NCBI GenBank assembly: GCA_038056395.1
Contig: JBBUFS010000004.1
Location: 884-64,883 of the forward strand
Direction: 5' to 3'
DNA: 64,000 nucleotides
DNA from: Patescibacteria group bacterium
GTDB taxonomy: Bacteria; Patescibacteriota; Minisyncoccia; Phycocordibacterales; WO2-35-19
The first letter of the stretch is position 1, and every line of letters begins with the position of its first letter. This document shows positions 23,228 through 55,758 of the stretch, in pieces. The notes beneath the pieces were generated by a model. That model was not told the origin of the DNA. It searched no databases and saw nothing but the letters and a program-made list of their open reading frames with translations. The position numbers and the translations under genes were made by a program.

Positions 23228-25684
23228 TTATGATTTCTTATGATGAGGAGCGTTGATTAATCCGCATTGTTTATATTTATAGACTTTGCCAGTACTAGGA
23301 TTTATTGCGCCACAAGGACAAGGATCATTGCGCCCAATTTTTTTTCCTCCTTCTCCCCTCTCCTTCACAAGGAGAGGAGCTGGGGGTGAGGTCGTAATTT
23401 TAAGAGCTTGATTCTGCACCTCCGCAGCTTCCACCGACACTCCCAGCTGTTCCGTAAGCTTCTTTAAATTTTCTTCAATAGTATTTTCAACATTTTGTTC
23501 CATTTCTTTAAAAAGCTTCAGGCCTTCTCTTTTATATTCAACCAGCGGGTCCCTCTGGCCATAAGCCCGCAAATTAACCGAACCGCGCAAATAATCCATC
23601 ATCTCTAGATGTTCCACCCAAAACATATCAAAAGTCTGCAATTTTAGACTGCGGATTTTTTCATCTTTCTCTTCTGTCAATATCTTTCGGCGGCGCTCGT
23701 AAAAAGTTTTCCTCTGAAAATTTAAAACATCATCATATTCAAGAATATGCTTGCGGGCGTCAAAATTGAGGCCCTCTATTTTTTCCTGAGCGCTCTCCAG
23801 AGATTTGGTAATCAGCCGATTTTCAATGGCTTCATCTTCGGGAATGCCCAGACGGCCCATCATATTTTTGACCGTATCAGCGGCAAAAACTCTCATAATA
23901 TGGTCTTCCATAGAAACAAAAAATTGAGTTTCTCCGGGGTCGCCTTGACGGCCGGACCGGCCGCGAAGTTGGTTGTCTATGCGCCTGGCATCATGCCTCT
24001 CGGTACCTAAAACAAAAAGACCGCCTAAACTTTTAACTTTCTCATGGGCCTCCTTATTGAAAGGAGCGCCTCCGAGTTTTATATCAACTCCGCGGCCAGC
24101 CATGTTGGTGGCCACCGTTACAGCGCCAAACCGGCCAGCCTGAGCGATAATTTCTCCTTCTCTTTCGTGATTTTTGGCGTTCAACATTTCAAAATTAACA
24201 CCTGCCGTTTTCAAATATTCTCCCAGCAGTTCATTCTTTTCAATAGAGATTGTGCCAATCAGGACTGGCTGGCCATTTTTTTGAAGCTCTTTCACTTTTT
24301 GGGCGATAGCCAAAAGTTTGCCTTTTTCGGTCTGGAAAATGAGGTCATTTTTGTCTGCCCTAGCGCCCGGTTTATTGGTTGGTATGGCTATAGTGTTGAG
24401 GCCGTAAACTTTGTAAAACTCTTCAGAAGAAGTGATGGCGGTACCGGTCATGCCCGAAAGTTTTTCGTACATCCTGAAATAATTTTGATAGGTGATGGAG
24501 GCAAAAGTCCGGCTTTCTTTTTGGACGCTGACATTTTCCTTGGCTTCAATGGCTTGATGCAAACCTTCTGACCAGCGCCGGCCCGGTTGTAGCCGGCCCG
24601 TATAGGGATCAACAATAATCACCTCGTCTTCCTTAACCACATAATCTTTATCAATATGATAGAGAGCTTTGGCTTTAATGGCGGTTTCCAGATGATGCAC
24701 CAATTTTATGCCCCCCTCGGCATAAATATTTCCCAAACCCAAAATTTCTTCCGCTTTGCTTATGCCCTCATCAGTTAAAAGCACGGCGTGCATTTTTTCA
24801 TCAACATTGTAATGTTCATTCTCTTTCAATTTATTCGCCACCAAAGCAAATTTTTTATATAAAGAGTCGGATTCCGCCGCCGGCGCGGAAATAATAAGCG
24901 GCGTTCTGGCCTCATCAATCAAAATAGAATCTATTTCATCTACGATGGCAAAGTGATGCCTTTTTTGCCTGACACTTTCATATTTATATTCAAGATTGTC
25001 GCGCAGATAATCAAAACCGAATTCACTGTTGGTGCCGTAAGTAATATCGGCTTCATATGCTTCCACTCTGCTGCAAGGTTTTAAAAATTCATGCACTATT
25101 TTAAAACTGCCTTTCTCATCTCTTTCTTTATCTAGTGTTTCCTCATTTTGATTTTTGATATTTGAATTTTGAATTTTAGCTTCAATATTTGCATTATATA
25201 AAAAGCTTGACTCATGAGCAATTACCGATACGGTAAGTCCCAGGGCATTATATATTTCCCCCATCCAAACAGCATCGCGGCGGGAAAGATAATCATTGAC
25301 CGTCACCACATGCACTCCTTTGCCGGCCAAAGCGTTAAGATAGGCCGGCAGAGTGGCTACTAAAGTTTTGCCCTCTCCAGTGCGCATTTCAGCGATGCCC
25401 CCCTGATGCATCACCATACCGCCCAAAAGTTGGACATCAAAATGTCTTTCATTTAAAGTTCTTTTAGCTGCTTCCCGCACACAAGCAAAAGCTTCCAGCA
25501 AAATATTTTCAAGTGTTTCTCCTTTTTTTAATCTTTCTTTGAATTCAGTAGTTTTATTTTTTAATTCCTCATCAGACAATTTAGAAATAGCTTCCTCAAA
25601 GCCGTTTATTTTGGGAATTAAAGGCGATATTTCTTTTATATATCTTTTACTCGAATCTCCAAATATTTTGTTCAAAAATGACAT
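23228..25684 (-). CDS. secA: Preprotein translocase ATPase SecA
   Basis: 818 aa; HFDVQLLGGMVMHQGGIAEMRTGEGKTLVATLPAYLNALAGKGVHVVTVNDYLSRRD (DEAD-motor and preprotein-binding region); C-terminal zinc finger CPCGAINPSTGKVYKYKQC. Confidence 0.95.
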   Translation of the reverse strand: MSFLNKIFGDSSKRYIKEISPLIPKINGFEEAISKLSDEELKNKTTEFKERLKKGETLENILLEAFACVREAAKRTLNERHFDVQLLGGMVMHQGGIAEMRTGEGKTLVATLPAYLNALAGKGVHVVTVNDYLSRRDAVWMGEIYNALGLTVSVIAHESSFLYNANIEAKIQNSNIKNQNEETLDKERDEKGSFKIVHEFLKPCSRVEAYEADITYGTNSEFGFDYLRDNLEYKYESVRQKRHHFAIVDEIDSILIDEARTPLIISAPAAESDSLYKKFALVANKLKENEHYNVDEKMHAVLLTDEGISKAEEILGLGNIYAEGGIKLVHHLETAIKAKALYHIDKDYVVKEDEVIIVDPYTGRLQPGRRWSEGLHQAIEAKENVSVQKESRTFASITYQNYFRMYEKLSGMTGTAITSSEEFYKVYGLNTIAIPTNKPGARADKNDLIFQTEKGKLLAIAQKVKELQKNGQPVLIGTISIEKNELLGEYLKTAGVNFEMLNAKNHEREGEIIAQAGRFGAVTVATNMAGRGVDIKLGGAPFNKEAHEKVKSLGGLFVLGTERHDARRIDNQLRGRSGRQGDPGETQFFVSMEDHIMRVFAADTVKNMMGRLGIPEDEAIENRLITKSLESAQEKIEGLNFDARKHILEYDDVLNFQRKTFYERRRKILTEEKDEKIRSLKLQTFDMFWVEHLEMMDYLRGSVNLRAYGQRDPLVEYKREGLKLFKEMEQNVENTIEENLKKLTEQLGVSVEAAEVQNQALKITTSPPAPLLVKERGEGGKKIGRNDPCPCGAINPSTGKVYKYKQCGLINAPHHKKS

Positions 25685-26293: not shown

Positions 26294-28594
26294 TTACGGA
26301 TTTCTCCCTGCTTGTATCTCCTTTATATAATATTCTCCCTTCTCCTTAAAAGACGGGTCTAATTTTATAATATTCTGTATTTCTTGCACTGCCTCCCCTC
26401 TTCTTCCCGCTTGCAAGTAGGCGGCAGTAAGCGTAATTCGGTGCTGCATATTGCCAGAGTCAAGCTCAACTCTTTTCTTAGCTACTTCAATAATTTCCGG
26501 AAACTTTTTGAGGGCCAGCAACACCGTGATATATCTATCATCAAAAATAATTTTTGATTCCGGCATGCCTTTCAAAATTTCATCCGAAAGAGACTTGTTA
26601 TTTGAAGCAAGAAGAGTTAAACCATAAATAAATTTGGCTTCTTCGTACGATGGTTCTAATTCATAAGCGGTTTTAGCCGCCTGTAAAGCTTCTGTGAACT
26701 TGCCGTCAAGAAGAAGATTGCTTGTCAGTTCAAAATATATTTGCTGTTTATTGGGAGAAAGTTTTTTGGCTTCTGTCAATTGTTCAATGGCTTTGCCATA
26801 CCAGCCAAATCTGGAAAGAAAAATTCCATAGAAAAGCCGATAACGGGCATCATTGGGAACTCTTGCCAAATGTTTTACAAAAGCCTTATCCACCGTATCA
26901 AATAATTTCTGCTTCAGCTCTCCTGAAGCGTTTGGATTGGCCGCCACATTAATGGCTGCCTGCGATATATGCTCTAAACTTTCGGAAAAGCCCATGCCAT
27001 ATCCAGCCAGAGGTTTGGCGTAAATTTCAATAGTTCCTATCTTTCCTCCATTATTTAATTTCAAAACCGCCAACAAATCCTTATTTTGCCGCCACGGCGC
27101 ATAAATAACAAAATATACAATCGTTATCGCCAAAATTAATATTAATGCCTCTATGACGGGTTTTAATTTCTCACTCTCAAGTATTTTTTTGATTTTTGTT
27201 GAAATTTTATCCCACCAAAACATTGGTGTTTCCGGCGCGCGAGAATGCACATAAGCCAGAATAGTAAAAAATAATATGTAACTGCTTATCTGATCAAAAA
27301 CAAAAATATTGTTGAATAAATATGCCGAGATAAGGCCCAATATTACGGCCTTGTCTTTTCTCTCCAATAAATCGTCCTTGGCTTTAATTATGTAATAAAA
27401 AAGGGAGAAAATTATTGCCAGATAGGAAAGCAGGCCTAAAGCGCCGCCGGCAATCAGCCAATCAAGATAAGTGTCATGAGCCCGATCAAACCACGGTTCC
27501 TGATTATACATTCGCGGGTCATAATATTTGTTGAAAACAAAATTGAAGCCCTCCTGCCCCCAGCCCAGAATCGGTTTTTCAATAAATCCCTTGATGGCCA
27601 TAGGCCAAACATAGTATCTGCCTTGGGTTTTTATTTCAGAAGGTGAAAGAGAGGAAAATCGACTCAAAACATAGTCATTTTTGACAAAAGCAGCATTCTT
27701 CACGGATAGAAACAAACCCACAAAAATAACGAGGCCTAAAATACTTGCGCCAGCCATTTTTCTTATTTTGTCGCCTTTCTCAGATTTCAACAGCAGAAAA
27801 ACGAAAGTTATAAAAACTCCGCCAATTAAACCCAAAATGGCTCCCCTGGTAGCGGTAAAGTAAAGCACGGTTAAATCAGCCAGAAAAACAATCCCCAATA
27901 AAATTTTCGCCCACAAACTTTTGGACCGGACAAACAGAAGAGCGGCAAAGAAAATATGGAAGACCATATAAATGGCCAGATAAGAAGCGTTGCCCAAAGT
28001 GCCATCTACTCTTACTCCTCCCTGATTGATATTAATCTTTCCGGCGATTTGCAAAAAAGAATAAGTAGCCATAATGGCCGAAGCGCCAAGACTGGTAGCC
28101 AAAAGTCTATTCCATATTTCTTGAGTTTTTAGGACAGAGCTCAAAACCAAAAAATAAGCGCCGAGATGCAAAAGGGTGATGTAACCTTCCATTCTTTCAT
28201 AATTGCTCCAAAAAGCTTTGAATGGATTTTGAGCGAAAATGTCAGCCACCCCCATTGCCAACAGAAACAAAAAAATGGAGCTTAATATCCAAGAAAATTT
28301 TGGCCGATAAGATTCGTCTCTGATGGCCAATACCAGATAACAGGCAAAGATGATTTCAACAATAATCCTAAAAACAAAAGCTTTGCCTGTAATAAAAGGA
28401 AAGAAAAGCGAGGATGCAACAATAAACGGCACAAACGGTATGGCAAAAAGCCCGGCCAAAATAATATATCTGAGTTGATTGTTAGACATAAATGCAAGTA
28501 TACCAAATATAAAAATAAAATGAAAAGATAGAAAAAATTTCTTATTTCTGTTATTATAACTCATTATGGAATTGACGGTTATTAGACCACACAA
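26294..28594 (-). CDS. Polytopic membrane protein with O-antigen-ligase/Wzy_C-type domain and C-terminal TPR repeats; candidate oligosaccharyl (O-)transferase or ligase
   Basis: 766 aa; about 12 TM helices, FTATRGAILGLIGG (Wzy_C signature region); C-terminal TPR-like repeats (AIEQLTEAKKLSPNKQQIYFELTSNLLLDGKFTEALQAAKTAYELEPSYEEAKFIYGLTL...). Confidence 0.6.
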   Translation of the reverse strand: MCGLITVNSIMSYNNRNKKFFLSFHFIFIFGILAFMSNNQLRYIILAGLFAIPFVPFIVASSLFFPFITGKAFVFRIIVEIIFACYLVLAIRDESYRPKFSWILSSIFLFLLAMGVADIFAQNPFKAFWSNYERMEGYITLLHLGAYFLVLSSVLKTQEIWNRLLATSLGASAIMATYSFLQIAGKININQGGVRVDGTLGNASYLAIYMVFHIFFAALLFVRSKSLWAKILLGIVFLADLTVLYFTATRGAILGLIGGVFITFVFLLLKSEKGDKIRKMAGASILGLVIFVGLFLSVKNAAFVKNDYVLSRFSSLSPSEIKTQGRYYVWPMAIKGFIEKPILGWGQEGFNFVFNKYYDPRMYNQEPWFDRAHDTYLDWLIAGGALGLLSYLAIIFSLFYYIIKAKDDLLERKDKAVILGLISAYLFNNIFVFDQISSYILFFTILAYVHSRAPETPMFWWDKISTKIKKILESEKLKPVIEALILILAITIVYFVIYAPWRQNKDLLAVLKLNNGGKIGTIEIYAKPLAGYGMGFSESLEHISQAAINVAANPNASGELKQKLFDTVDKAFVKHLARVPNDARYRLFYGIFLSRFGWYGKAIEQLTEAKKLSPNKQQIYFELTSNLLLDGKFTEALQAAKTAYELEPSYEEAKFIYGLTLLASNNKSLSDEILKGMPESKIIFDDRYITVLLALKKFPEIIEVAKKRVELDSGNMQHRITLTAAYLQAGRRGEAVQEIQNIIKLDPSFKEKGEYYIKEIQAGRNP

Positions 28595-29384
28595 AACATT
28601 TAGTTTGAAGGATATTAAAGAGCTCTGGCAATACAGAGAGCTTTTGTATTTTTTTACCTGGCGTGATTTAAAGGTTCGTTATAAGCAGACCTTTATAGGT
28701 GTGGCTTGGGCCATATTTCAGCCATTTATTACCATGGTGATTTTTTCCATATTCTTCGGCGGGCTAGCCAAAATGCCTTCCGACGGAGTACCTTATCCCA
28801 TTTTTGTTTTTGTCGGCCTTTTGTTTTGGCAATTTTTCTCCAGCGCCCTCTCTGAAACAAGCGGTTCTCTCATTGGTAACCAATCTATTATTACCAAAGT
28901 TTATTTTCCTCGCTTAATTTTGCCGGTCTCCGGTGTAATAACCAAATTTATAGACTTTTTAATCGCCACCCTAATATTGATAGGCCTTATGTTTTATTAC
29001 GGATATACGCCCCATATTTCGGGCCTTTTGATTTTGCCTCTTCTGCTTCTGATTACTTTCATGGCCTCTATAGGGTTGGGACTTTTTTTGGCAGCCATAA
29101 ATGTTAAATACAGAGATGTGAGGTATGCTTTGCCTTTTTTTATACAGATACTTTTGTTTCTTACTCCGGTTATTTATCCCGCTTCCATCGCCGGCAAATA
29201 TTCTTTTCTTCTGGCCATTAATCCCATGATGGGTGTTATTCAAAGCGCCAGAGCGGCCATACTCGGCACTTCACCCATCAACTGGTTACTGGTGGAAATT
29301 TCTCTGGCGGGCACGTTTGTTCTTCTTATATTCGGAATATACATATTTAAAAAAACCGAGCGCTACTTTGCCGACATAATATAG
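28566..29384 (+). CDS. ABC-2 type polysaccharide/teichoic-acid export permease (Wzm/TagG-like)
   Basis: ELWQYRELLYFFTWRDLKVRYKQTFIGVAWAIFQPF is the classic ABC-2 permease N-terminus; 6 TM segments. Confidence 0.8.
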   Translation: MELTVIRPHKTFSLKDIKELWQYRELLYFFTWRDLKVRYKQTFIGVAWAIFQPFITMVIFSIFFGGLAKMPSDGVPYPIFVFVGLLFWQFFSSALSETSGSLIGNQSIITKVYFPRLILPVSGVITKFIDFLIATLILIGLMFYYGYTPHISGLLILPLLLLITFMASIGLGLFLAAINVKYRDVRYALPFFIQILLFLTPVIYPASIAGKYSFLLAINPMMGVIQSARAAILGTSPINWLLVEISLAGTFVLLIFGIYIFKKTERYFADII

Positions 29385-29393
29385 ACGAAAATT

Positions 29394-30671
29394 ATGGAAA
29401 AACCGATTATAGAAATTAGAAATATAAGCAAAAAATATAATATCGCCCATCAGCGTGGTGGCTATGTGGCTTTGCGCGATGTTTTGATGAATGTGCTTAA
29501 ATCCCCCTTCTATTTTTTGAAATCAAAAGCCAAGCAAGTTGCCGGATTTGAAAAAAAGGAAGAATTCTGGGCCCTTAAAGATGTCAATTTTTCGGTTCAA
29601 AAAGGCGAAGTGGTGGGAATTATAGGGGCCAACGGCGCGGGCAAATCCACCCTGCTTAAAATCCTCTCTCAAATCACCCCCCCGACCGAGGGCGAGATTA
29701 TTTTACGAGGCAGAGTCGGCTCGCTTTTGGAAGTCGGCACGGGCTTTCATCCGGAATTGACCGGCCGGGAAAATATATTTTTGAATGGAGCTATTTTGGG
29801 CATGAAGAAAAAGGAGATAGCCCAAAAATTTGACGAGATTGTGGAGTTTGCCGGCATAGGAAAATTTTTGGACACACCAGTCAAATATTATTCAAGCGGT
29901 ATGTATGTACGACTGGCTTTTTCAGTAGCCGCTTATATGGAACCGGATATTTTGATAATTGATGAAGTTCTGGCCGTGGGCGACGCCGAGTTCCAAAAAA
30001 AATGTTTGGGTAAGATGGAGGAAATAACAAAAGAAGAAGGCAGAACTATTCTTTTTGTAAGCCATAATATGGAGGCCATAAGAAGAATGTGCAGCCACTG
30101 CATTCTTTTGGATAAGGGAAAAATCACTTTCAAAGGAAATACGGGAGATACTTTGTCGGCTTATGATAAAAGCGACACAAAACTTGGAATAAACAAAGGA
30201 GGAAACAGAAAAAATCAAAGCCGAAGAGGTTCGGGGACTTTGAGTTTTACTGATATAAAAATTTTGGATGATTTAAACAAAGAAAGAAACATTTTTAAGA
30301 CGGGAGAGGCCGTCAGATTCAAAATGTCTTATGTTGTTTGTGAAGAAATGCGGGGGCTTCATGCCAGCGTTTGTTTTTTTTCAAACAAAACCAGGGAGTT
30401 GCTCACTAGCATACGTTATGAAATAAAAAGCGGCGTCGTGGCAAAAAATGAAACCGGCACGGCAACTATAGAAGTAGAGCTGACGATTATAAGGCCGGGT
30501 GAATACTCATTGTATTTTTGGCTGGGTGACGAAGCGGCCACCAAACAAGGCACTCCAACAAACTACGATATTGTTGACGGCATAACCAAACCGCTTATTA
30601 TAGAAGCTAAAAATGAAGAAGAAAAAAAACTGACTGGTAGCTTCTCCTTGCCTTCAAAAATTATAAAATAG
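29394..30671 (+). CDS. ABC transporter ATP-binding protein, Wzt/TagH-like, with C-terminal extension (possible carbohydrate-binding domain)
   Basis: Walker A GANGAGKST, signature YSSGMYVRLAFSVA, Walker B ILIIDEVLAVGD; about 170-aa C-terminal beta-rich extension. Confidence 0.85.
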   Translation: MEKPIIEIRNISKKYNIAHQRGGYVALRDVLMNVLKSPFYFLKSKAKQVAGFEKKEEFWALKDVNFSVQKGEVVGIIGANGAGKSTLLKILSQITPPTEGEIILRGRVGSLLEVGTGFHPELTGRENIFLNGAILGMKKKEIAQKFDEIVEFAGIGKFLDTPVKYYSSGMYVRLAFSVAAYMEPDILIIDEVLAVGDAEFQKKCLGKMEEITKEEGRTILFVSHNMEAIRRMCSHCILLDKGKITFKGNTGDTLSAYDKSDTKLGINKGGNRKNQSRRGSGTLSFTDIKILDDLNKERNIFKTGEAVRFKMSYVVCEEMRGLHASVCFFSNKTRELLTSIRYEIKSGVVAKNETGTATIEVELTIIRPGEYSLYFWLGDEAATKQGTPTNYDIVDGITKPLIIEAKNEEEKKLTGSFSLPSKIIK

Positions 30672-31191
30672 ATTTTACCATCATAACGCTGTTTATATAT
30701 TTGCCGTTAAAAAGAAAGAGTTCTTTTCTAACATCTTCTATTGTAAAACCGTTTTTGGTAAATGCTTTGATTGAACCGGTGTTATTTTCATATGCCCCAG
30801 CTATAATTTTATGCAACTTTAATCTATTAAAAGAAAAATCAGACAAAAGACCAATGGCCTCACTGGCATAGCCATGACCCCAAGAATCTTTGTCGCCAAT
30901 CATAATTCCGATTTCAGCAAATTTATGATGTTTGTTTATAGGACCTAATTTTATATTGCCTATATGCTTATCAGAATCTTTACGAATAATAGCCAAAAAT
31001 ATATAACTGGAATCTTTCAAGACATTATTAATATATTCTCTTAAGTTTTTTGACGTATGTTTAGAAAACCTGCTCTCCAGATATTGGTTGACTTCCGGAT
31101 CATTAAGCCAACCGACATATTCTTTGGTGGCGTCGGAGATTTCAACCGGTCTTAAATAAATAAGGGTTCCCTCTAATTTTATTTTTTTCAT
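30661..31191 (-). CDS. GNAT family N-acetyltransferase (RimL-like; a PseH-like role is possible)
   Basis: 176 aa; ...IGNIKLGPINKHHKFAEIGIMIGDKDSWGHGYASEAIGLLSDFSFNRLKLHKIIAGAYENNTGSIKAFTKNGF is a typical GNAT core. Confidence 0.7.
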   Translation of the reverse strand: MKKIKLEGTLIYLRPVEISDATKEYVGWLNDPEVNQYLESRFSKHTSKNLREYINNVLKDSSYIFLAIIRKDSDKHIGNIKLGPINKHHKFAEIGIMIGDKDSWGHGYASEAIGLLSDFSFNRLKLHKIIAGAYENNTGSIKAFTKNGFTIEDVRKELFLFNGKYINSVMMVKSIL

Positions 31192-31222
31192 TCTTGTTAG
31201 ATTGGTTCGGCAAAAATAATAA

Positions 31223-32293
31223 TTAAAAATATACTGCCTCGGCCATATGGGCAGTTTGTTTGAAAAGGTCTTGCCGCCACGCCGGATTATTGTTGAAATA
31301 ATTGTCTTTCATGGCATGGGTCAATCTAGACAATGCCTCATCTCGAATAAAATATGGTATTGTTGCAAGTTCTTTTTTATCTATGGGGCAAATATCTTGG
31401 TATGCATTAAGAAAAATATTTTTAGCTTCCGCTGCCACTTTTGAATAGTCGGTTAGATTATTAAATATAATATATTGTCGCGCCATTCTGTGGAGAGCAA
31501 AAGCGAGAGAGCGTGTTTTTTCAAGATAATGCAATGAATCAAAATCAATAATTGCTGCTATTTTTTTGCCGTTAGCTAAAAGATTGTGGGGATGAAGGTC
31601 AAAATGAACAATGCCCCAAGCGGTACTGCGCGGTTTTTGTTTTATAACATTGCGAACATCTTTAAGAATAAAATCCTCTTTAACCAGAAGATCAGCATGA
31701 AACTGGTCCTTTGGATTATTTTTCTGCTGGTGGCGCGCCTCTTGAAATATCTTTTTCCATATAGAAAGATTATACGACCTTAATTCTCTGACTTTTTTTA
31801 GCAATGAAAGCTTTTTTCGCTGCTTGCCCGTTATAGGCAGACAAGCCAGGGCTTTATCCAATTTACCAATTTCCCTGCCAGCGCTTTCAATCTCTTGGCG
31901 CGTCCCCCGATAATGGTCGGCATTGAGAAATATAAAAAGCGCGTATGGGTTATTCTCATCTATAACAAATAATTGTTTGCTTTGGGACGGCACCAAATGT
32001 GGCACATTCACTCCTTTGATAGAAAGTTTTTCCATAAGTTTAAGAGTTTCCCCTATCGCCGCCTGATTTCTAACACCCATATAACGCCGAAGCAAATATG
32101 TGTTTTTGTTTGTCGTAATCTTAAAATTATTGCTGTTGATTTCCGCTTCATCAACTTGTTCAATAGTTAAAATATTTTGGGGTTCAATGCCATAGCAGGA
32201 ACCGGCAATGTTCTTCACATTTTCGGCCTCTTTTTGGCTGACAGGTCTATAATGTATCTTCCACTTGCTGTGATTGTTGGGCTGAAAAATCAT
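31223..32293 (-). CDS. Aminoglycoside-phosphotransferase (APH)/choline-kinase-fold kinase
   Basis: GIVHFDLHPHNLL ... IIDFDS (catalytic loop HxDxxxxN and DFD motif of the APH/ChoK family). Confidence 0.6.
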   Translation of the reverse strand: MIFQPNNHSKWKIHYRPVSQKEAENVKNIAGSCYGIEPQNILTIEQVDEAEINSNNFKITTNKNTYLLRRYMGVRNQAAIGETLKLMEKLSIKGVNVPHLVPSQSKQLFVIDENNPYALFIFLNADHYRGTRQEIESAGREIGKLDKALACLPITGKQRKKLSLLKKVRELRSYNLSIWKKIFQEARHQQKNNPKDQFHADLLVKEDFILKDVRNVIKQKPRSTAWGIVHFDLHPHNLLANGKKIAAIIDFDSLHYLEKTRSLAFALHRMARQYIIFNNLTDYSKVAAEAKNIFLNAYQDICPIDKKELATIPYFIRDEALSRLTHAMKDNYFNNNPAWRQDLFKQTAHMAEAVYF

Positions 32294-32389: not shown

Positions 32390-33013
32390 ATGGGCGTGAA
32401 AAATGCTGAAAAAATAAAAGCTGTTATTTTTGACTGGGCGGGAGTGTTTTGTTCTCCTGGTGAACTTTTTTCACATCCAGCCCTAGCGACTCAAACAGGC
32501 CTGAATGTTGACGAAATGGGTGAACAGACCGCATCTATCCAACACGCTTATTATACCGGCACGATAAACAGCAAAGAATTTTGGGAGCAATCTTCCAATC
32601 TTTTGGGTCCTGCAGGTTTGTCCGAAACAGAATTGCGCGACGCATATCTTGCTTCTTACAGAATCTATCCGGAAATGCTTGGGCTTGCTTTAAATCTCAA
32701 ACAGAAATATAAAACATTGCTTCTTTCTAATTTAACGGCTGAAATGACGGAAGATATTAAAAAAAAATATGGAGTAAAAAAATATTTTCATCATGCTATT
32801 TTTTCAAACGAAGTCGGCTTGATGAAACCGGACCCTAAAATTTTTGAACTTGCCGTTGAAAAAATTAATATTCCGATAAAAAACATTGTTTTTATTGACG
32901 ACTCGCAAACCAATATCAAAGTCGCTGAGCATCTCGGTTTCCATATAATATTGTTCAAAAATCCGACTCAATGCCGGCAAGAGCTGAGAGATTTGGGGGT
33001 AACTATAATTTAA
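32390..33013 (+). CDS. HAD-superfamily hydrolase (subfamily IA)
   Basis: AVIFDWAGVF (motif I DxD-like), LLSNLT, VFIDDSQTNIKVAEHLG (motif IV). Confidence 0.7.
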   Translation: MGVKNAEKIKAVIFDWAGVFCSPGELFSHPALATQTGLNVDEMGEQTASIQHAYYTGTINSKEFWEQSSNLLGPAGLSETELRDAYLASYRIYPEMLGLALNLKQKYKTLLLSNLTAEMTEDIKKKYGVKKYFHHAIFSNEVGLMKPDPKIFELAVEKINIPIKNIVFIDDSQTNIKVAEHLGFHIILFKNPTQCRQELRDLGVTII

Positions 33014-33016
33014 TTA

Positions 33017-34309
33017 TTAAACCGGTTTATTGCGCGGTTTTATAACGGGACCCTCAAGCAAGGTTCCAACTTTTCCGTTTTTTAATGCGCTACTCATAAT
33101 CGCAAAAACTTTTTCCAATCGTCGCGATACTTCTGCGATGTGAGAGGTGGTGTGAGAATAATTCATAACATTGGAACAACTCGTCAAAATACCAGCTTTG
33201 GCTGTCTCTTGAATAAACAAACTTTTGAGAACGAGATCATCATTTCCGTCGTTGTCCTTGAAAACAAATACCGGATGAGGACCGATACCCACGGCTTTCG
33301 TCGGGATTTTATATTCATTGGCAAGGGCATTGTAATTTTTGATCAGCAGATTCCCGGTTTCCCACAATCTTTTTTGAATATTGTTTCGCTTCATAAAATC
33401 AAGGGTTGCCAACGCGGCCGCGATACTTGGCAGATAACCGGCATAGGTAAATGAAAAAAATATGTCACCAGCATTCAAAGTCGCCATAATTTCTCGCTTA
33501 CCGCCCAATACCGAGAGTGGTTCGCCGTTGGAAATCGCTTTTCCATAACAAACCAGATCCGGAATGACACCGAAATATTCCGCGGCGCCACCCATGGCCA
33601 AACGAAAACCAGTAACCAGCTCATCAAAAACCAGCACCGCTTTATGTTTGCTGGCTAGTATTTTTATTCCTTCAAGAAAACCGGGGTGTGGCAGAGCAGA
33701 ACTGACTGGCTCAAGAATAATCGCGGCTATTTGATTGGGATAATCGTTTAGAATTTTTTCAAGACTAGGCAAATCATTGTATTTAAACTCATGGCTTAAA
33801 TTCTTAACCGCCTCCGGAATACCTCTGTTGCGGAGAGGATTGGTGGCAATTGCCCAATCCGGCCAGCCGTGATAGCCGCACTTGGCAACATGGTCGCGCC
33901 CGGTGTAAGCTCGAGCCACTCTGATAGCGGCAGTAGTAACATCAGAACCATTGAGACCAAAACGCACCATCTCGATATAAGGCAGCAGGCCGACAATCTT
34001 TTCAGCCAAGACGACTTCAAGATCGCCTGGTATGGAAAAAATTGTCCCTTTTTGGCGTTGACGGAGAACCGATCGTTCAATAAGCGGATGTTGGTAACCC
34101 AAAATGATCGCTCCCAATGAGGAAGCGAGATCAATATATTTGTTACCATCAACATCCCAGACTTCGCAGCCTTTGCCTCTTATGATTGCGTAGGGCGACA
34201 CCCCTTCCACAAATTGATCAGGAGATTTGCTTAAGGTTTGGGAAGCCCGCGGAATCACTTTTTTTGCTCTTTCCAGTAATCTTTTTGAATTTAAGGTTCT
34301 TCTTTTCAT
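33017..34309 (-). CDS. Class III (GSA-aminomutase-like) PLP-dependent aminotransferase
   Basis: 430 aa; ...GSDVTTAAIRVARAYTGRDHVAKCGYHGWPDW... and general class-III aminotransferase architecture. Confidence 0.7.
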   Translation of the reverse strand: MKRRTLNSKRLLERAKKVIPRASQTLSKSPDQFVEGVSPYAIIRGKGCEVWDVDGNKYIDLASSLGAIILGYQHPLIERSVLRQRQKGTIFSIPGDLEVVLAEKIVGLLPYIEMVRFGLNGSDVTTAAIRVARAYTGRDHVAKCGYHGWPDWAIATNPLRNRGIPEAVKNLSHEFKYNDLPSLEKILNDYPNQIAAIILEPVSSALPHPGFLEGIKILASKHKAVLVFDELVTGFRLAMGGAAEYFGVIPDLVCYGKAISNGEPLSVLGGKREIMATLNAGDIFFSFTYAGYLPSIAAALATLDFMKRNNIQKRLWETGNLLIKNYNALANEYKIPTKAVGIGPHPVFVFKDNDGNDDLVLKSLFIQETAKAGILTSCSNVMNYSHTTSHIAEVSRRLEKVFAIMSSALKNGKVGTLLEGPVIKPRNKPV

Positions 34310-34336
34310 TGTAATACAGCTCTTGTTTCTAAAATA

Positions 34337-35104
34337 TTATTTTTTAAAATTAAAGCAATTTTTTTTCCAGCTACTAAATCCGTCATGCCGTCTATATTTT
34401 TTATTTATATCAATCAGGGAATCATTTTGTTTCAATACTTTCAAAATATCTTCTAAGACAAAATCTCTGGGCAAGAGTTTTAACAGATTGTTGATAAGTT
34501 TGATATCATCCTTATAATCAACCGTAAACCTAAATCTTGATATATCTTTCTCGTTGTTTAAGTTGGCTATTCTAAACCGCCGAGGATTGTCTCTGATATG
34601 GGCGGTAACATGTTCTCGCTCATGCGATTTTTTAGCTTTTTTCCACATGTTCTTTAAAATATTAAAGGAAAAGACTTCAACATCCAGACCATCCGGAAAG
34701 GTTGGTGGGATAACATTACTGGCATAATCAACTTTTTCCCGAAAAAAAATATTTATTACTTTATCAATAATCTGCGGATCGGTTAGAGGGCAGTCGGCGT
34801 TAATTCTGATGATCACAGAATAGTTGCGATAAAACAACGCGCATTGATAAAATCTGTCCAGAACATCATTTTCCGAACCGCGAAAACAATCAACGCCGAT
34901 TTTCCGGCATAATTTTTCCGTAACATCGTCTTCTCTTCTATCAGTAGTAGCGACAACAATTTTGCCTATTTTTTTTGCTTGACCAACTCTAATCAAAACA
35001 TTTTCAAGAATTGTTCGGCCCCCGGCTTTCATTAAAATCTTGCCGGGCAAGCGAGTAGAATTCATTCTGGCTTGAATAATGCAAATTGTTTTTATTTTTT
35101 CCAT
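34337..35104 (-). CDS. SpsF/PseF-type cytidylyltransferase (CMP-sugar synthetase family)
   Basis: ICIIQARMNSTRLPGKILMKAGGRTILENVLIRV is the acylneuraminate-cytidylyltransferase-family N-terminus. Confidence 0.65.
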   Translation of the reverse strand: MEKIKTICIIQARMNSTRLPGKILMKAGGRTILENVLIRVGQAKKIGKIVVATTDRREDDVTEKLCRKIGVDCFRGSENDVLDRFYQCALFYRNYSVIIRINADCPLTDPQIIDKVINIFFREKVDYASNVIPPTFPDGLDVEVFSFNILKNMWKKAKKSHEREHVTAHIRDNPRRFRIANLNNEKDISRFRFTVDYKDDIKLINNLLKLLPRDFVLEDILKVLKQNDSLIDINKKYRRHDGFSSWKKNCFNFKK

Positions 35105-36000
35105 AAGCTGGGAAATATTATGCTTTTTTCGACATCAACAAAATTTTCTTTCAATTCTTTTATGCAGTTATCGCAATCCTTATTCTTATCTGCTATATCT
35201 ATGTCTTCTTTTAGCTGATCTAGATCATCCACGCCAAAAACCGTATAATTTATATCTTTGTTTTTGCAGGAAAACAGAAGAGCCGCTTGTTGTCTAGACA
35301 GATTATATTTATTTATAATTTTATCAAGCTTTTTCAAATATGGCTTGGCAATTTCCAAATATGGAGGAATTTTCTCCTCTGACATAAAAAACAGACCCTG
35401 TAAAAAAGCGCTGCGCGCAAAAACTGTCACATTATTTTTTTGGGCAATTTCAAAAAAATTTGTTTTGTTTAATCTTTGGTCAAAAATGCTATACGGCACT
35501 TGTATATAATCAAATTTATTGAGTTCAACCGCATAGACAGCATCGTTTTCTTCATAAATAGAAACGCCTATGTTTTTGACTAATTTTTGTTTTTTAAGGT
35601 TTACCATAGCGTCAACCGTTTTATTATCATATATATATGCCGGAGTATGAAAAAGATAACCATCCACATAATTTCTATTTAATCTTTTTAATGATTCCTC
35701 CAGATTGTTAGCTATAATATCGAGAGCTTCTCCGTGAGATTCAGACATAATATTCGGTTTTAATTTAGTAATAATCTTTATTTCCGCGCTTAAATTTCTA
35801 GTTTTAATAAATTCCCCTAAAATTTCTTCCGCTTCGCCGTAATTATAGGCAGTATCAAAAATCCTTATGCCCTTTTGCCAAGCATAATCAAGCATGGCAA
35901 GAGATTTCTCTCTTGCCGGTTTTCCATTTGGATTGTTAATTCCGTAATTTAAACCAAATTGAACCGTGCCCAGTATTAATTTGTTTAATAAGCTATTCAT
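35092..36000 (-). CDS. Aldo/keto reductase
   Basis: LGTVQFGLNYGINN ... GIRIFDTAYNYGEAEEILG ... AKR fold motifs. Confidence 0.75.
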   Translation of the reverse strand: MNSLLNKLILGTVQFGLNYGINNPNGKPAREKSLAMLDYAWQKGIRIFDTAYNYGEAEEILGEFIKTRNLSAEIKIITKLKPNIMSESHGEALDIIANNLEESLKRLNRNYVDGYLFHTPAYIYDNKTVDAMVNLKKQKLVKNIGVSIYEENDAVYAVELNKFDYIQVPYSIFDQRLNKTNFFEIAQKNNVTVFARSAFLQGLFFMSEEKIPPYLEIAKPYLKKLDKIINKYNLSRQQAALLFSCKNKDINYTVFGVDDLDQLKEDIDIADKNKDCDNCIKELKENFVDVEKSIIFPSLWKK

Positions 36001-36083
36001 TAAATTTTGTTAATTATATCATTAAAAATATAATATTGCTAGTGTTTATAATGTAATTTGATATATAATAGCAAACATTAAAT

Positions 36084-36962
36084 ATGAGAAGGACGAACCA
36101 GCTTGTAAAGCATAAATTGGGATTTTTCCAAGTTAAAAATAAGCCAACCCAAAAAGAATTGGAGAATTTTTATTCAAAACAATATTATCAAAACGAACGT
36201 GGCAGTTATCGCTCTCAATATTCCAACGAAGAAATAAAGTATTTTAATGCGAAAGATGAACAAAGGTTTGAAATTATTTCTAAACTGATTCCGAAAGGCA
36301 AACGCCTTTTAGATATAGGTTGCGGAGAGGGTTATATGATTGATTTTTTTAAAAAGGGAGGATGGGATGTTTTGGGTTTAGATTATAGCGGATTTGGTTG
36401 TTCAAAAATGAACCCCGCCTGTCTTTCCATGGTAAAGATCGGCGACATCTACAGGAGCATAGATGAACTCATAAGCAAAAAAGGAAAATTTGATGTAATC
36501 AGCTTGAAAAATGTTTTGGAGCATGTGCTTGAACCAGAAATACTCTTAAAAAAAATAAAAAAACTTGCCCGCAGTAACACGATCCTGATTGTTACGGTAC
36601 CGAATGATTTTTCATTTTATCAAAATTTTTTGTTGAAAGAAAAAATGATTGATAATCCGTTTTGGGTGATTATCCCGGACCATATCTCTTATTTTGAAAA
36701 AAACAGTTTAAAAAAAATCTGCAGCTATGCCGGCTGGCAAGAAAAAGAAGTAGTGGCTGATTTTCCAATAGACATATTTTTATCAAATCCCCATTCCAAT
36801 TATATCAAAGATAAGTCCAAGGGACCGGCCGCCCATCAGGCCAGGATTAAATTGGAAAATTTGTTTAATAATGTGTCAATCAAAGCAACGATTAATCTTT
36901 ACAAAGCAATGGCCGAACTTGGTTTTGGAAGACAGATTACCGGGTACTACAAAATTAAATAG
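36084..36962 (+). CDS. Class I SAM-dependent methyltransferase
   Basis: RLLDIGCGEGYMIDFF (motif I), VISLKNVLEHVLEP (motif II/III). Confidence 0.65.
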   Translation: MRRTNQLVKHKLGFFQVKNKPTQKELENFYSKQYYQNERGSYRSQYSNEEIKYFNAKDEQRFEIISKLIPKGKRLLDIGCGEGYMIDFFKKGGWDVLGLDYSGFGCSKMNPACLSMVKIGDIYRSIDELISKKGKFDVISLKNVLEHVLEPEILLKKIKKLARSNTILIVTVPNDFSFYQNFLLKEKMIDNPFWVIIPDHISYFEKNSLKKICSYAGWQEKEVVADFPIDIFLSNPHSNYIKDKSKGPAAHQARIKLENLFNNVSIKATINLYKAMAELGFGRQITGYYKIK

Positions 36963-36985
36963 GCCATTTATCCGATTTTTATATT

Positions 36986-38340: not shown

Positions 38341-38434
38341 ATGGTTTCTCTCCGTTGTTTAGAATAATACAAATAATAACTTAAAGCAACTTGACAAAGT
38401 ATATAATATTTTTATAATCAAACGCTAGACGTCT

Positions 38435-39004: not shown

Positions 39005-39015
39005 TCGCAATTTTT

Positions 39016-40742: not shown

Positions 40743-40746
40743 TAAA

Positions 40747-46919: not shown

Positions 46920-46928
46920 ATAAAAAAT

Positions 46929-52228: not shown

Positions 52229-52419
52229 CCCTCTGCCGCTTCTTTCACTTTTTTTAATTGTTCATCGGTTAATTCTATTAACAATGTCTCTACCAGCTCG
52301 CCATTTTCGTTTAGTTTGCCCTTAAAATCTTTTTCATCGTACTTAAACAATTCCGGCGCGCAGTTCATGCAGAAACTGCAGCCGATGCATTCGTTTTGAT
52401 TTATGGTTATTTTAGCCAT
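52192..52419 (-). CDS. Small [4Fe-4S] ferredoxin
   Basis: 75 aa; CIGCSFCMNC...C(P) cysteine pattern; immediately downstream of, and overlapping, a radical SAM gene. Confidence 0.65.
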   Translation of the reverse strand: MAKITINQNECIGCSFCMNCAPELFKYDEKDFKGKLNENGELVETLLIELTDEQLKKVKEAAEGCPAQAINITEV

Positions 52420-53911: not shown

Positions 53912-53915
53912 TAGA

Positions 53916-55010: not shown

Positions 55011-55019
55011 TTTTATATA

Positions 55020-55745: not shown

Positions 55746-55758
55746 TATAACAGGCAAA

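What the first reader, a model, noticed from the sequence alone, without database searches (positions are those of the whole stretch)
26294..32293. Wzy_C membrane protein with TPR tail plus Wzm/Wzt and separate kinase/methyltransferases: resembles a Gram-positive S-layer/protein O-glycosylation system
Wzy_C/O-antigen-ligase-like proteins include protein O-oligosaccharyltransferases (PglL/PilO/WsaB). Here one is fused to a C-terminal TPR region (a protein-interaction module) and sits beside Wzm and a Wzt with a C-terminal extension, as in ABC-transporter-dependent glycan pathways where chain length is set by a terminal cap read by the Wzt C-domain. An APH-fold kinase and numerous methyltransferases nearby parallel the WbdD-type kinase/methyltransferase chain terminators and the WsaE methyl cap of S-layer glycans. 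The adjacent Ser/Thr-rich giant surface protein is a plausible acceptor.
Basis: inference. Interest (0 to 1): 0.65.

Follow-up and report, generated by a model that had tools for sequence, protein, structure and literature searches.

The report
Conserved glycan ligase beside variable sugar island
An uncultured ultra-small bacterium (Patescibacteria) carries a highly conserved membrane enzyme that most likely moves finished sugar chains from a lipid carrier onto a cell-surface acceptor, probably proteins, and it sits between a housekeeping secretion gene and a strain-specific block of sugar-synthesis genes.

Summary
Window 26294-32293 encodes a Wzy_C membrane protein with a TPR tail, Wzm, a Wzt with a carbohydrate-binding domain (CBD), a GNAT and an APH-fold kinase. 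The Wzy_C protein is 731 aa and starts at ATG 28489, not at the TTG.

The 731-aa protein has a WaaL-like fold, an invariant Arg/Arg/His triad, and a 13th helix that places about seven TPRs outside the cell. It belongs to a large Parcubacteria family found in at least 590 species.

It lies upstream of secA in 50 of 52 loci, often with murB between them. On its other side is a hypervariable glycan island served by Wzx, Wzm/Wzt or a PglK-like exporter. This pattern fits an en bloc ligase that tolerates many glycans, not a polymerase.

The Wzt nucleotide-binding domain (NBD) is 70-85% identical among relatives, but the CBD cannot be aligned. That fits reading of a glycan-specific cap.

The kinase is not WbdD-like. 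It travels with a nonulosonic-acid biosynthesis cassette.

The "adjacent" giant protein is 15 kb away and contains three inteins.

A protein acceptor is plausible but unproven. The system is a new member of a known kind, of moderate interest.

The parts
26294..28489 (-). Wzy_C-TPR glycan ligase, 731 aa. It has a 12-TM WaaL-like core (Wzy_C domain at aa 201-357), a Lys-rich amphipathic helix at 424-437, a 13th TM at about 445-465, and about seven TPR-like repeats at aa 487-731.
   Evidence: Pfam. Identical 731-aa NCBI protein and orthologs. AF2 model with pLDDT 86 and pTM 0.83. Foldseek match to WaaL 7tpg, TM-score 0.66. Profile hit to 7tpg/7tpj aligning R215/R291/H338 with WaaL R191/R265/H313. 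Invariant residues.
26294..27031 (-). TPR tail of the ligase (aa 487-731), predicted to be extracytoplasmic.
   Evidence: TPR Pfam families. Matches to consensus TPR proteins, the OGT TPR domain and MamA. Five K/R residues in the loop before TM13, and the WaaL N-in/C-in topology. A tail is present in 77 of 80 orthologous loci.
28490..28565 (.). 76-bp divergent intergenic region between the ligase gene and wzm, with back-to-back promoter-like hexamers.
   Evidence: Consensus matches only: + strand 28529-28557 and - strand 28526-28497, both with an extended TG. The same 75-145 bp divergent spacing occurs in four related loci.
28566..29384 (+). Wzm, the ABC-2 permease of a glycan exporter (6 TM).
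   Evidence: Pfam ABC2_membrane. NCBIfam Wzm/RfbD-like. 65-88% identical in 12 or more related loci.
29394..30671 (+). Wzt, with a nucleotide-binding domain (aa 1-262) and a C-terminal carbohydrate-binding domain (aa 263-425; nt 30180-30671).
   Evidence: ABC_tran plus Wzt_C. A. aeolicus Wzt 8dku, E 1e-66. CBD model matches 2r5o, 8dky and 5hno. NBD 70-85% identical but CBD unalignable in 18 orthologs. Only 5 CBD homologs in the protein database.
30661..31191 (-). GNAT N-acetyltransferase, weakly PseH-like. Probably part of nonulosonic-acid synthesis.
   Evidence: Acetyltransf_3. NCBIfam PseH at 44 bits, below the cutoff of 93.
31223..32293 (-). APH-fold small-molecule kinase, part of a conserved precursor-biosynthesis cassette. 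It is not a WbdD-type terminator.
   Evidence: Pfam APH. Best matches are homoserine kinase II. Homolog contexts L089-L091. Absent from 80 ligase loci.
32390..43881 (.). Nonulosonic-acid (Pse/Leg-type) biosynthesis and decoration genes. They encode HAD, a class-III aminotransferase, a CTP_transf_3 cytidylyltransferase, AKR, a methyltransferase, PIG-L, a formyltransferase, DUF218, HAD, ATP-grasp, NeuB, a DegT aminotransferase and a PseB-like dehydratase.
   Evidence: Pfam. NCBIfam.
43991..63837 (.). Rest of the glycan island. It contains a 665-aa protein weakly like the BFO_1060 glycosyltransferase family. It also has GT2, GT4 and GT8-like transferases and four methyltransferases. Two B12-radical-SAM enzymes, NUDIX and dTDP-sugar genes follow, and a PMT_2 GT-C protein sits at 62392-63837. 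The island runs to the window edge.
   Evidence: Pfam. NCBIfam.
23228..25684 (-). secA, the conserved downstream neighbour of the ligase gene.
   Evidence: Pfam. secA is downstream on the same strand in 50 of 52 species-level loci.
287..11314 (-). Giant 3675-aa protein, Ser/Thr/Gly-rich, single-pass, with three inteins. It is only a speculative acceptor.
   Evidence: Composition and the single TM. Intein/Hint/NYN domains. Intein boundaries. No evidence links it to the ligase.

Best explanation
The 731-aa protein is a WaaL/PglL-type (GT-C_B, Wzy_C family) en bloc glycan ligase of a monoderm Patescibacterium.

Proposed mechanism:
1. A glycan containing a decorated nonulosonic acid is built on a polyprenyl-diphosphate carrier at the inner face of the membrane by enzymes of the adjoining island.
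2. The Wzt C-terminal carbohydrate-binding domain recognises a glycan-specific terminal feature, and Wzm/Wzt exports the finished chain.
3. At the outer face the ligase binds the lipid diphosphate through R215 and R291. With H338 as the catalytic residue, it transfers the whole chain to an acceptor.
4. The extracytoplasmic TPR domain, tethered by a 13th helix next to the catalytic loop, docks that acceptor. The acceptor is most probably Ser/Thr (or Tyr) residues of secreted surface proteins, as with WsaB/WsfB in S-layer glycosylation and PglL/PglS in Gram-negative bacteria.

Shown here: domain content, fold, catalytic residues, conservation, synteny, exporter swapping and the CBD fold. Inferred: the lipid carrier, the identity of the cap, the role of the TPR domain, and a protein acceptor.
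For: - Wzy_C scores above Pfam's gathering cutoff.
- The AF2 model is confident (pLDDT 86). Its TM core superposes on WaaL 7tpg (E 2e-5, TM-score 0.66 over 454 columns).
- WaaL is the only PDB family hit by a TM-only profile. The alignment places R215, R291 and H338 on WaaL R191, R265 and H313.
- Spacing of the triad matches E. coli WaaL R215/R288/H338 and N. meningitidis PglL R224/R298/H349 (PMC3643930).
- The triad is invariant across 40 orthologs and across 8 sequences only 40-51% identical.
- The family is large and conserved: 2638 representatives at E<1e-30, at least 590 GTDB species, and all of the top 80 are Parcubacteria.
- The flanking island differs between relatives.
- The neighbouring exporter is Wzx in 25, Wzm/Wzt in 12 and a PglK-like ABC in 6 of 61 loci. 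One conserved enzyme serving many glycans and three export routes is how WaaL and PglL behave, not Wzy.
- Support for a protein acceptor:
  - The TPR tail is on the outside.
  - PglS also has a periplasmic C-terminal domain, described on a 13-helix model (PMC12800693).
  - WsfB and PglL carry a C-terminal TPR, and WsaB has a TPR partner, WsaA (PMC2943079).
  - secA lies downstream in 50 of 52 loci.
  - Patescibacteria are reported to lack LPS, so the WaaL acceptor should be absent (established knowledge, not tested here).
- The Wzt CBD fold is confirmed. The pattern of a conserved NBD with a hypervariable CBD matches serotype-specific cap reading in E. coli O8/O9a (established knowledge).
Against: - No acceptor has been identified.
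- The PglL-specific motif PglL_A (PF15864) and Wzy_C_2 are not detected even at E<=10. No curated NCBIfam subfamily claims the protein; the best is IctB at 59 bits against a cutoff of 366.
- No pilin-like gene (1 motif match in 80 loci) and no recognisable S-layer gene lies next to the ligase.
- In 28 of about 50 loci murB lies between the ligase gene and secA. That linkage could equally point to a cell-wall acceptor.
- The extracytoplasmic loops are very highly conserved. This could reflect one fixed non-protein acceptor.
- Synteny in small, streamlined genomes may be historical rather than functional.
- No initiating phosphoglycosyltransferase is present in the window.
Confidence: 0.5

Rival explanations
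1. The enzyme uses the same chemistry but has a non-protein acceptor. It would be a WaaL-like ligase that attaches the exported glycan to a membrane glycolipid anchor, or to peptidoglycan or lipid II. That would make a secondary cell-wall polymer or a lipoglycan. The TPR domain would then act as a scaffold toward the wall or other envelope enzymes.
For: - The closest solved structure is WaaL, a lipid-acceptor ligase.
- PglL-specific motifs are absent.
- murB lies directly downstream in 28 of about 50 loci.
- The outer loops are extremely conserved, for example FFPFITGK, WSNYERMEG, NQGGVRVDGTLGNASY and GWGQEGFNFVFNKYYDP. This fits one invariant acceptor.
- TPR domains also scaffold polysaccharide export machines (reference 99 cited in PMC2943079).
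Against: - No Wzy_C-family enzyme is known to ligate to peptidoglycan; LCP enzymes do that in monoderms (established knowledge).
- Lipid A-core is reported absent in this group (established knowledge).
- The only monoderm systems known with Wzy_C plus TPR plus Wzm/Wzt glycosylate S-layer proteins.
Confidence: 0.3
2. The protein is a Wzy-type repeat-unit polymerase for the glycan island, not a ligase.
For: - Wzy_C is shared with Wzy polymerases, and there is a weak NCBIfam glyco_rpt_poly hit (20.5 bits).
- In Wzx-type loci (L004, L006) no other Wzy candidate is seen within 10 kb.
Against: - Polymerases co-vary with their repeat unit. This protein stays 57-80% identical while the island changes completely.
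- It is paired with Wzm/Wzt or PglK-like exporters in 18 loci, where the glycan is finished before export and no Wzy is needed.
- The glyco_rpt_poly score is half the cutoff of 40.
Confidence: 0.08
3. The APH kinase, with a methyltransferase, would be a WbdD-like terminator that caps the chain with phosphate or methyl-phosphate, and the Wzt CBD would read that cap.
For: - Wzt has a genuine CBD, so some cap probably exists.
- Kinase and methyltransferase genes lie within the island.
- In two related loci a methyltransferase gene directly follows wzt: L001 and L007.
Against: - The APH is a stand-alone 356-aa protein with no fused methyltransferase. No WbdD chain is matched at E<=1.
- Its best families are homoserine kinase II and, weakly, Kdo kinase.
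- Its homologs always sit between a HAD/class-III aminotransferase pair and a CTP_transf_3 gene (4-bp overlap in L089), with NeuB and PseB/PseC-like genes nearby. One such locus uses a PglK-like exporter instead of Wzt.
- No APH homolog is found in 80 ligase loci, including 12 with Wzm/Wzt.
- A Wzt whose CBD is 63% identical has entirely different neighbours, a pyruvyltransferase and an MBOAT.
Confidence: 0.05

Closest known systems
WsaB (Geobacillus stearothermophilus) and WsfB (Paenibacillus alvei) S-layer O-oligosaccharyltransferases, with their slg clusters
   Same: The host is a monoderm. The membrane enzyme has a Wzy_C domain, with a TPR either fused (WsfB) or encoded alongside (WsaA). 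A Wzm/Wzt exporter, whose Wzt is proposed to read a terminal cap, lies in the same cluster (PMC2943079).
   Different: No S-layer structural gene lies beside the ligase here. The ligase is a core, syntenic gene (ligase, sometimes murB, then secA) at the edge of a replaceable island, and in relatives it is paired with Wzx or PglK-like exporters instead. Direct sequence similarity to WsaB/WsfB could not be tested. The glycan is nonulosonic-acid based, not a rhamnan.
PglL (Neisseria) and PglS (Acinetobacter) general O-oligosaccharyltransferases
   Same: Both have a Wzy_C core with the Arg/Arg/His triad, an extra extracytoplasmic C-terminal domain and extreme tolerance of glycan structure (PMC3643930; PMC12800693). 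An invariant acidic residue, D399, lies 61 residues after the catalytic His. In PglL and PglS the corresponding E404 and E379 lie 55 residues after it.
   Different: The PglL_A and Wzy_C_2 signatures are absent. The C-terminal domain here is a roughly 245-aa TPR solenoid. The host is monoderm, and no pilin gene is adjacent.
WaaL O-antigen ligase (Cupriavidus metallidurans, PDB 7TPG/7TPJ)
   Same: It is the best and only solved structural and sequence match for the TM core. The diphosphate-binding arginines and the catalytic histidine align.
   Different: WaaL has no 13th helix or TPR domain, and its acceptor is lipid A-core, which this lineage is reported to lack. Sequence identity is only about 16%.
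Wzm/Wzt O-antigen ABC transporters with a carbohydrate-binding domain (E. coli O9a, Aquifex aeolicus, Raoultella terrigena)
   Same: Wzm, the Wzt NBD and a C-terminal jelly-roll CBD are all present. The NBD is conserved and the CBD is glycan-specific.
   Different: The cap recognised here is unknown. The host has no outer membrane or LPS. This CBD is very rare, with 5 homologs found.
TPR-bearing protein glycosyltransferases of other folds (TMTC1-4, TfpW, OGT)
   Same: The architecture is a glycosyltransferase fused to a TPR array on the side of the membrane where the acceptor protein is met. These appeared as search results. OGT TPR structures are among the Foldseek hits to the tail.
   Different: The catalytic folds and donors are unrelated. 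The comparison is an analogy only.

Membership tests
Wzy_C / WaaL-type GT-C_B ligase superfamily | Pfam Wzy_C (PF04932) domain above the gathering score | tested here: met
   72-73 bits against a cutoff of 31.7, covering aa 201-357.
Wzy_C / WaaL-type GT-C_B ligase superfamily | 12-TM WaaL-like fold with a large outer loop between TM9 and TM10 | tested here: met
   AF2 model with pLDDT 86. Foldseek hit to 7tpg_B at E 2e-5, TM-score 0.66 over 454 columns.
Wzy_C / WaaL-type GT-C_B ligase superfamily | Conserved Arg, Arg, His (E. coli WaaL R215/R288/H338) | tested here: met
   R215, R291 and H338 are invariant. They align with CmWaaL R191, R265 and H313. Spacing matches the residues listed in PMC3643930.
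PglL/PilO/PglS O-oligosaccharyltransferases | PglL_A motif (PF15864) and/or Wzy_C_2 (PF11846) | tested here: not met
   Neither is reported at E<=0.001 or at E<=10.
PglL/PilO/PglS O-oligosaccharyltransferases | Additional C-terminal extracytoplasmic domain after an extra TM helix | tested here: met
   TM13 at about 445-465 is followed by aa 487-731 on the outside. This compares with PglS residues 438-548. The domain type differs: here it is TPR.
PglL/PilO/PglS O-oligosaccharyltransferases | Demonstrated transfer of glycan to Ser/Thr of a protein | not testable with these tools
   This needs glycoproteomics or heterologous reconstitution.
WsaB/WsfB S-layer O-OTase systems | Wzy_C enzyme with a fused or adjacent TPR, in a cluster with wzm/wzt, in a monoderm | tested here: met
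   The monoderm status of Patescibacteria comes from established knowledge.
WsaB/WsfB S-layer O-OTase systems | S-layer (acceptor) structural gene in or next to the cluster | tested here: inconclusive
   No recognisable S-layer gene lies in the 64-kb window. The only large surface-type protein is 15 kb away.
WsaB/WsfB S-layer O-OTase systems | Sequence relatedness to WsaB/WsfB closer than to other Wzy_C proteins | not tested
WaaL sensu stricto (LPS O-antigen ligase) | Lipid A-core acceptor present in the organism | not testable with these tools
   Only 64 kb of the genome is available. Patescibacteria are reported to lack LPS synthesis (established knowledge). No WaaL equivalog hit appears in NCBIfam.
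Wzy O-antigen polymerase | Co-variation with the repeat unit, and dependence on the Wzx pathway | tested here: not met
   The protein is 57-80% identical across loci with unrelated islands. It is paired with Wzm/Wzt (12 loci) or a PglK-like ABC (6 loci) as well as Wzx (25 loci). TIGR04370 scores 20.5 bits against a cutoff of 40.
Wzm/Wzt cap-reading ABC exporter | ABC-2 permease plus an NBD with a C-terminal Wzt_C carbohydrate-binding jelly-roll | tested here: met
   Pfam. 8dku at E 1e-66. The CBD model's top 14 hits are all Wzt CBDs.
Wzm/Wzt cap-reading ABC exporter | CBD specificity varies with the glycan while the NBD is conserved | tested here: met
   In 18 orthologs the NBD is 70-85% identical, the tail is 153-170 aa, and BLASTP on the CBD gives E>0.009.
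WbdD-type chain terminator | Bifunctional kinase and methyltransferase with a coiled-coil, functionally tied to Wzt | tested here: not met
   The APH is a single 356-aa domain. No WbdD match in the PDB at E<=1. It travels with a NeuB/cytidylyltransferase cassette, not with wzt.

The most novel reading that the evidence does not exclude
Parcubacteria may carry a lineage-wide general protein O-glycosylation system. One core Wzy_C-TPR oligosaccharyltransferase, encoded just upstream of secA, would decorate newly secreted surface proteins such as the S-layer, pili or giant adhesin-like proteins. The glycans would be strain-specific and hypervariable, delivered by any of three exporter types. This would be the CPR counterpart of O-antigen variation, and a likely determinant of host attachment and phage susceptibility in these episymbionts.
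Probability: 0.35. Interest if true: 0.7.

Novelty: new member of a known kind. Interest (0 to 1): 0.45.

Why it matters
Patescibacteria are a large, almost uncultured part of bacterial diversity. They live attached to other cells, and their surface chemistry is essentially unknown.

A single, nearly universal ligase next to a replaceable glycan island gives a concrete handle. The ligase gene can serve as a genomic marker to find and catalogue surface-glycan islands in metagenomes. The enzyme is an obvious target for heterologous reconstitution, in the way PglL and PglS are used.

If the acceptor is protein, the work would extend Wzy_C-type O-glycosylation to a new major lineage. It might also provide a glycan-tolerant O-oligosaccharyltransferase for bioconjugation.

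The chemistry and logic are those of known WaaL/PglL/WsaB systems, so this extends known biology rather than adding a new principle.

Tried and rejected
- A single-sequence phmmer search of the ligase against PDB found only TPR proteins. A TM-only profile was needed to reach WaaL.
- I tried to identify the Wzt cap by finding Wzt proteins that share this CBD. Only 5 homologs exist, all on contigs of 2.7 kb or less. The one readable context has a pyruvyltransferase and an MBOAT, with no counterpart in the window. The cap stays unknown.
- I looked for a WbdD relationship for the APH and rejected it.
- I looked for pilin-like genes (class III signal motif) in 80 loci and found 1 dubious match. Adjacent-pilin logic, as for PilO and TfpO, does not apply.
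- An Rfam gathering-threshold scan of the whole window found nothing. The 609-bp gap between the ligase gene and secA has no credible ORF.
- Literature searches for Patescibacteria, Parcubacteria or Saccharibacteria with O-antigen ligase or protein glycosylation found nothing relevant.
- The polymerase reading was considered and rejected, for the reasons given under the rival explanations.
- No initiating phosphoglycosyltransferase (Bac_transf or Glycos_transf_4) was found among the window's ORFs.

Full report
**What is in the sequence**

The window is from a Patescibacteria (Parcubacteria/Paceibacteria, Zambryskibacteria-like) genome. The 731-aa protein is identical to an NCBI entry named [quoted passage not shown], and its closest relatives carry Zambryskibacteria or Paceibacterota labels.

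These are Wzy_C plus TPR (26294-28594, -), ABC2_membrane (28566-29384, +), ABC_tran plus Wzt_C (29394-30671, +), GNAT (30661-31191, -) and APH (31223-32293, -).

The listed TTG start would make the Wzy_C gene overlap wzm head-to-head. The deposited protein and about 100 orthologs are 731 aa, so the start is ATG 28489. This leaves a 76-bp divergent intergenic region.

To the right, from 32.4 kb to the window edge, lies a glycan island of at least 35 kb.
- It begins with a nonulosonic-acid pathway: PseB-like dehydratase, DegT aminotransferase, NeuB and a CTP_transf_3 cytidylyltransferase.
- That pathway comes with formyl-, acetyl- and methyl-transferases, ATP-grasp, two HAD genes, PIG-L and an AKR.
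- Further right are glycosyltransferases, two B12-radical-SAM enzymes, dTDP-sugar genes and a PMT_2 GT-C protein.

To the left is a housekeeping block: secA, DUF5674, VTT/DedA, AI-2E, a glycogen-synthase-like GT, GH57, GH15, MYG1 and gatB. An IS200-like gene follows, and only then the giant protein.

**The Wzy_C-TPR protein**

An AlphaFold2 model built from 40 orthologs is confident (pLDDT 86, pTM 0.83).
- It shows a 12-helix membrane core with a large loop between helices 9 and 10.
- A Lys-rich amphipathic helix follows (aa 424-437), then a 13th transmembrane helix (about 445-465).
- The rest is an all-helical solenoid of about seven TPR-like repeats (aa 487-731).

Foldseek matches the core to the WaaL O-antigen ligase 7tpg (E 2e-5, TM-score 0.66 over 454 columns). 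It matches the tail to consensus TPR proteins, the OGT TPR domain and MamA.

A profile of the membrane part alone, built from 8 sequences that are 40-51% identical, hits only WaaL in the whole PDB (E 4.6e-5). That alignment places R215, R291 and H338 on WaaL R191, R265 and H313.

The spacing is that of the functional triad reported for E. coli WaaL (R215/R288/H338) and N. meningitidis PglL (R224/R298/H349) (PMC3643930). All three residues are invariant in both alignments.

With the WaaL topology (N-in, C-in after 12 helices) and five K/R residues in the loop before helix 13, the TPR domain lies outside the cell. This is the same side as the catalytic loop. That placement is inferred from the model and the positive-inside rule. 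It has not been measured.

**Comparative genomics**

The family is very large and unusually conserved for a Wzy_C protein.
- There are 10,023 cluster representatives at E<1e-3 and 2,638 at E<1e-30. The best 150 are 42-66% identical, and most are 700-800 aa long.
- In one-genome-per-species GTDB contigs, at least 590 stretches encode a relative. The 80 best are all Patescibacteria/Parcubacteria, including Zambryski-, Campbell-, Lloyd-, Taylor-, Kaiser-, Nomura-, Vogel- and Yonath-bacteria.
- The TPR tail is present in 77 of 80 loci.
- secA lies downstream on the same strand in 50 of 52 loci that have enough sequence, with a median gap of 1.1 kb.
- In 28 of those loci the gap holds murB, confirmed by Pfam. 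In this window the gap is 609 bp with no credible ORF and two hairpins.

On the other side of the gene the content is not conserved.
- Relatives 58-77% identical to the window protein have rhamnose/GT10/radical-SAM islands, or methyltransferase/ATP-grasp/DUF362 islands, where this window has a nonulosonic-acid island.
- The nearest exporter within 6 kb is a Wzx flippase in 25 loci and Wzm/Wzt in 12 (never both). A PglK-like fused ABC exporter is found in 6 more, out of 61 loci.

So one conserved enzyme sits at a fixed chromosomal position and serves unrelated glycans and three export routes. That is the signature of a glycan-tolerant en bloc ligase such as WaaL or PglL. It is incompatible with a repeat-unit polymerase.

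**Wzm/Wzt**

Wzt matches the full-length Aquifex aeolicus Wzt (8dku) at E 1e-66, with the alignment running into the C-domain.

A model of residues 263-425 (pLDDT 82) retrieves Wzt carbohydrate-binding domains as its top 14 PDB hits. These are E. coli O9a 2r5o, A. aeolicus 8dky and 6o14, and the Kdo-cap-binding R. terrigena 5hno and 5hnp.

Among 18 Wzt orthologs beside the ligase gene, the nucleotide-binding domain is 70-85% identical to this one. The tail is always 153-170 aa, yet the C-domain is unalignable by BLASTP (E>0.009). Only five proteins in the 5.8-billion-protein collection share this particular C-domain.

This mosaic fits a domain that reads a glycan-specific terminal feature, as established for O8/O9a. 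I could not identify the feature here. The one readable context of a similar C-domain has a pyruvyltransferase and an MBOAT that are absent from this window. A terminal nonulosonic acid, by analogy with the Kdo cap, is a reasonable guess and no more than that.

**The kinase and methyltransferases**

The APH protein is a stand-alone 356-aa enzyme.
- Its best relatives are type II homoserine kinases (PDB 2ppq at E 6e-6; NCBIfam 62 bits, far below the cutoff). There is a faint Kdo-kinase signal.
- No WbdD chain is matched at E<=1.
- Its family is small, with 32 hits.
- In three independent loci its homologs lie in the same cassette as here.
  - The order is class-III aminotransferase, HAD on the opposite strand, APH, then CTP_transf_3.
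  - APH and CTP_transf_3 overlap by 4 bp in L089.
  - AKR, DUF218, NeuB and PseB/PseC-like genes lie nearby.
- One of these loci uses a PglK-like exporter and has no wzt.
- No APH homolog occurs in any of the 80 ligase loci, 12 of which have Wzm/Wzt.

The kinase is therefore part of a nucleotide-sugar or substituent precursor pathway tied to the nonulosonic acid. It is not a WbdD-type terminator.

A methyl cap remains possible in principle. In two related loci a methyltransferase gene directly follows wzt. Nothing singles out any of this window's methyltransferases.

**The proposed acceptor**

The giant 3675-aa protein is 15 kb away, not adjacent.
- It has a charged N-terminal region of about 200 aa that I take to be cytoplasmic, and one transmembrane helix.
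- It then has long Ser/Thr/Gly-rich stretches, up to 32% S+T per 200 aa.
- It is interrupted by three canonical inteins: C617-N944, C1395-N1782 and C2154-N2641. Each is followed by Thr, and inteins 2 and 3 carry NYN-domain inserts.

It is a conceivable substrate, but I have no evidence linking it to the ligase.

**Which acceptor?**

Several points favour a protein.
- The outside-facing TPR array fits that role. TPRs dock protein acceptors in OGT, TMTC1-4 and TfpW.
- WsfB and PglL carry a C-terminal TPR, and WsaB has a TPR partner, WsaA.
- PglS, like this protein, has an extra extracytoplasmic C-terminal domain.
- The link to secA is deep.
- The lineage is reported to lack the lipid A-core acceptor of WaaL (established knowledge).

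Other points count against it, or favour a wall or lipid acceptor.
- PglL_A and Wzy_C_2 signatures are absent even at E<=10, and no curated subfamily fits.
- No S-layer or pilin gene is adjacent.
- murB is frequently linked.
- The outer loops are almost invariant, which would suit a single fixed acceptor.

I put the en bloc ligase function at about 0.8. Within that, I put a protein acceptor at about 0.5-0.6, a non-protein acceptor at about 0.3, and a polymerase at under 0.1.

**Comparison with known systems, and novelty**

The system works like the ABC-transporter-dependent S-layer glycosylation systems of Geobacillus and Paenibacillus, and like the PglL/PglS general O-glycosylation systems. 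Structurally the enzyme is closest to WaaL.

It passes the tests for the Wzy_C/WaaL-type superfamily and for a CBD-bearing Wzm/Wzt exporter. It fails the sequence test for the PglL subfamily and the tests for Wzy and WbdD. Its relation to WsaB/WsfB could not be tested.

I found no paper that discusses this family in Patescibacteria.

I rate it a new member of a known kind. It is an uncharacterised but conventionally built ligase family. What is new here is its near-universal, position-fixed association with secA (and often murB) and with a hypervariable glycan island in Parcubacteria.

**Verdict**

Interest is 0.45. The system is useful and testable, but it is not surprising to a glycobiologist.

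Noticed in passing
window 287-11314 (-); inteins at nt 8483-9466, 5969-7132 and 3392-4855: The giant 3675-aa Ser/Thr/Gly-rich single-pass protein is interrupted by three canonical inteins: C617-N944, C1395-N1782 and C2154-N2641, each with Thr at +1. Each intein begins CVT[AG]DT followed by an Arg run. Inteins 2 and 3 carry NYN-domain inserts and sit at the same repeated extein motif (AIGSTTQ|C...AHN|TSFVVTN). Inteins in a surface-type repeat protein are unusual.
   Followed up: partly
L014-L087, between the ligase gene and secA (e.g. L034 10513-11541); window 25685-26293: In 28 of about 50 related loci murB lies between the Wzy_C-TPR gene and secA on the same strand. In this window and its close relatives murB is missing from that position, leaving a 609-bp non-coding gap.
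   Followed up: partly
window 25707-25739 and 26115-26146 (- strand): Two 14-bp-stem hairpins followed by T-runs lie in the gap between the ligase gene and secA. One is just after the ligase gene and looks like a terminator. The other ends 23 nt upstream of the secA start codon and might be a leader or attenuator-like element.
   Followed up: no
window 31223-36000; L089 6092-9853; L091 6026-10784; L090 1309-4631: A conserved cassette recurs in distant Patescibacteria, including Uhrbacteria. Its order is class-III aminotransferase (glutamate-1-semialdehyde aminomutase-like), HAD on the opposite strand, APH kinase, CTP_transf_3 and then AKR. It always lies with NeuB/PseB/PseC-like genes. It looks like an uncharacterised branch of nonulosonic-acid biosynthesis or decoration.
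   Followed up: partly
window 30180-30671 vs L001, L007, L008 etc.: There appears to be a recombination breakpoint inside wzt. The NBD is up to 85% identical to relatives, while the CBD is unalignable. This particular CBD has only 5 homologs among 5.8 billion proteins.
   Followed up: yes
L040, L046, L047, L063, L070, L079 (upstream of the ligase gene); L089 64-1860: A PglK-like fused ABC exporter (ABC_membrane plus ABC_tran, about 595 aa) replaces Wzx or Wzm/Wzt next to the ligase gene in six species. This is a third export route for the same ligase.
   Followed up: partly
window 62392-63837 (-); L032 216-1541: A PMT_2 (ArnT/PMT-like GT-C) membrane glycosyltransferase of 481 aa sits at the far end of the island. 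A 37%-identical homolog lies directly upstream of the ligase gene in L032. It may be a second outer-face glycosyltransferase, possibly fed by the GT2 at 55020-55823.
   Followed up: no
window 48467-50020 (+) and 52412-53911 (-): Two B12-binding radical SAM enzymes lie inside the glycan island. Together with a C-methyltransferase (59428-60729) and four other SAM methyltransferases, they suggest heavily C- and O-methylated sugars.
   Followed up: no
window 43991-45988 (+): A 665-aa protein has no Pfam domain. It has weak NCBIfam hits to the BFO_1060 glycosyltransferase family (E 1e-5) and to 'surface carbohydrate biosynthesis protein'. It is a candidate nonulosonic-acid transferase.
   Followed up: no
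window 12498-13151 (+): An IS200-like Y1 transposase gene lies between gatB and the giant protein gene. Around 10-14 kb, GC content drops to 31-32%.
   Followed up: no
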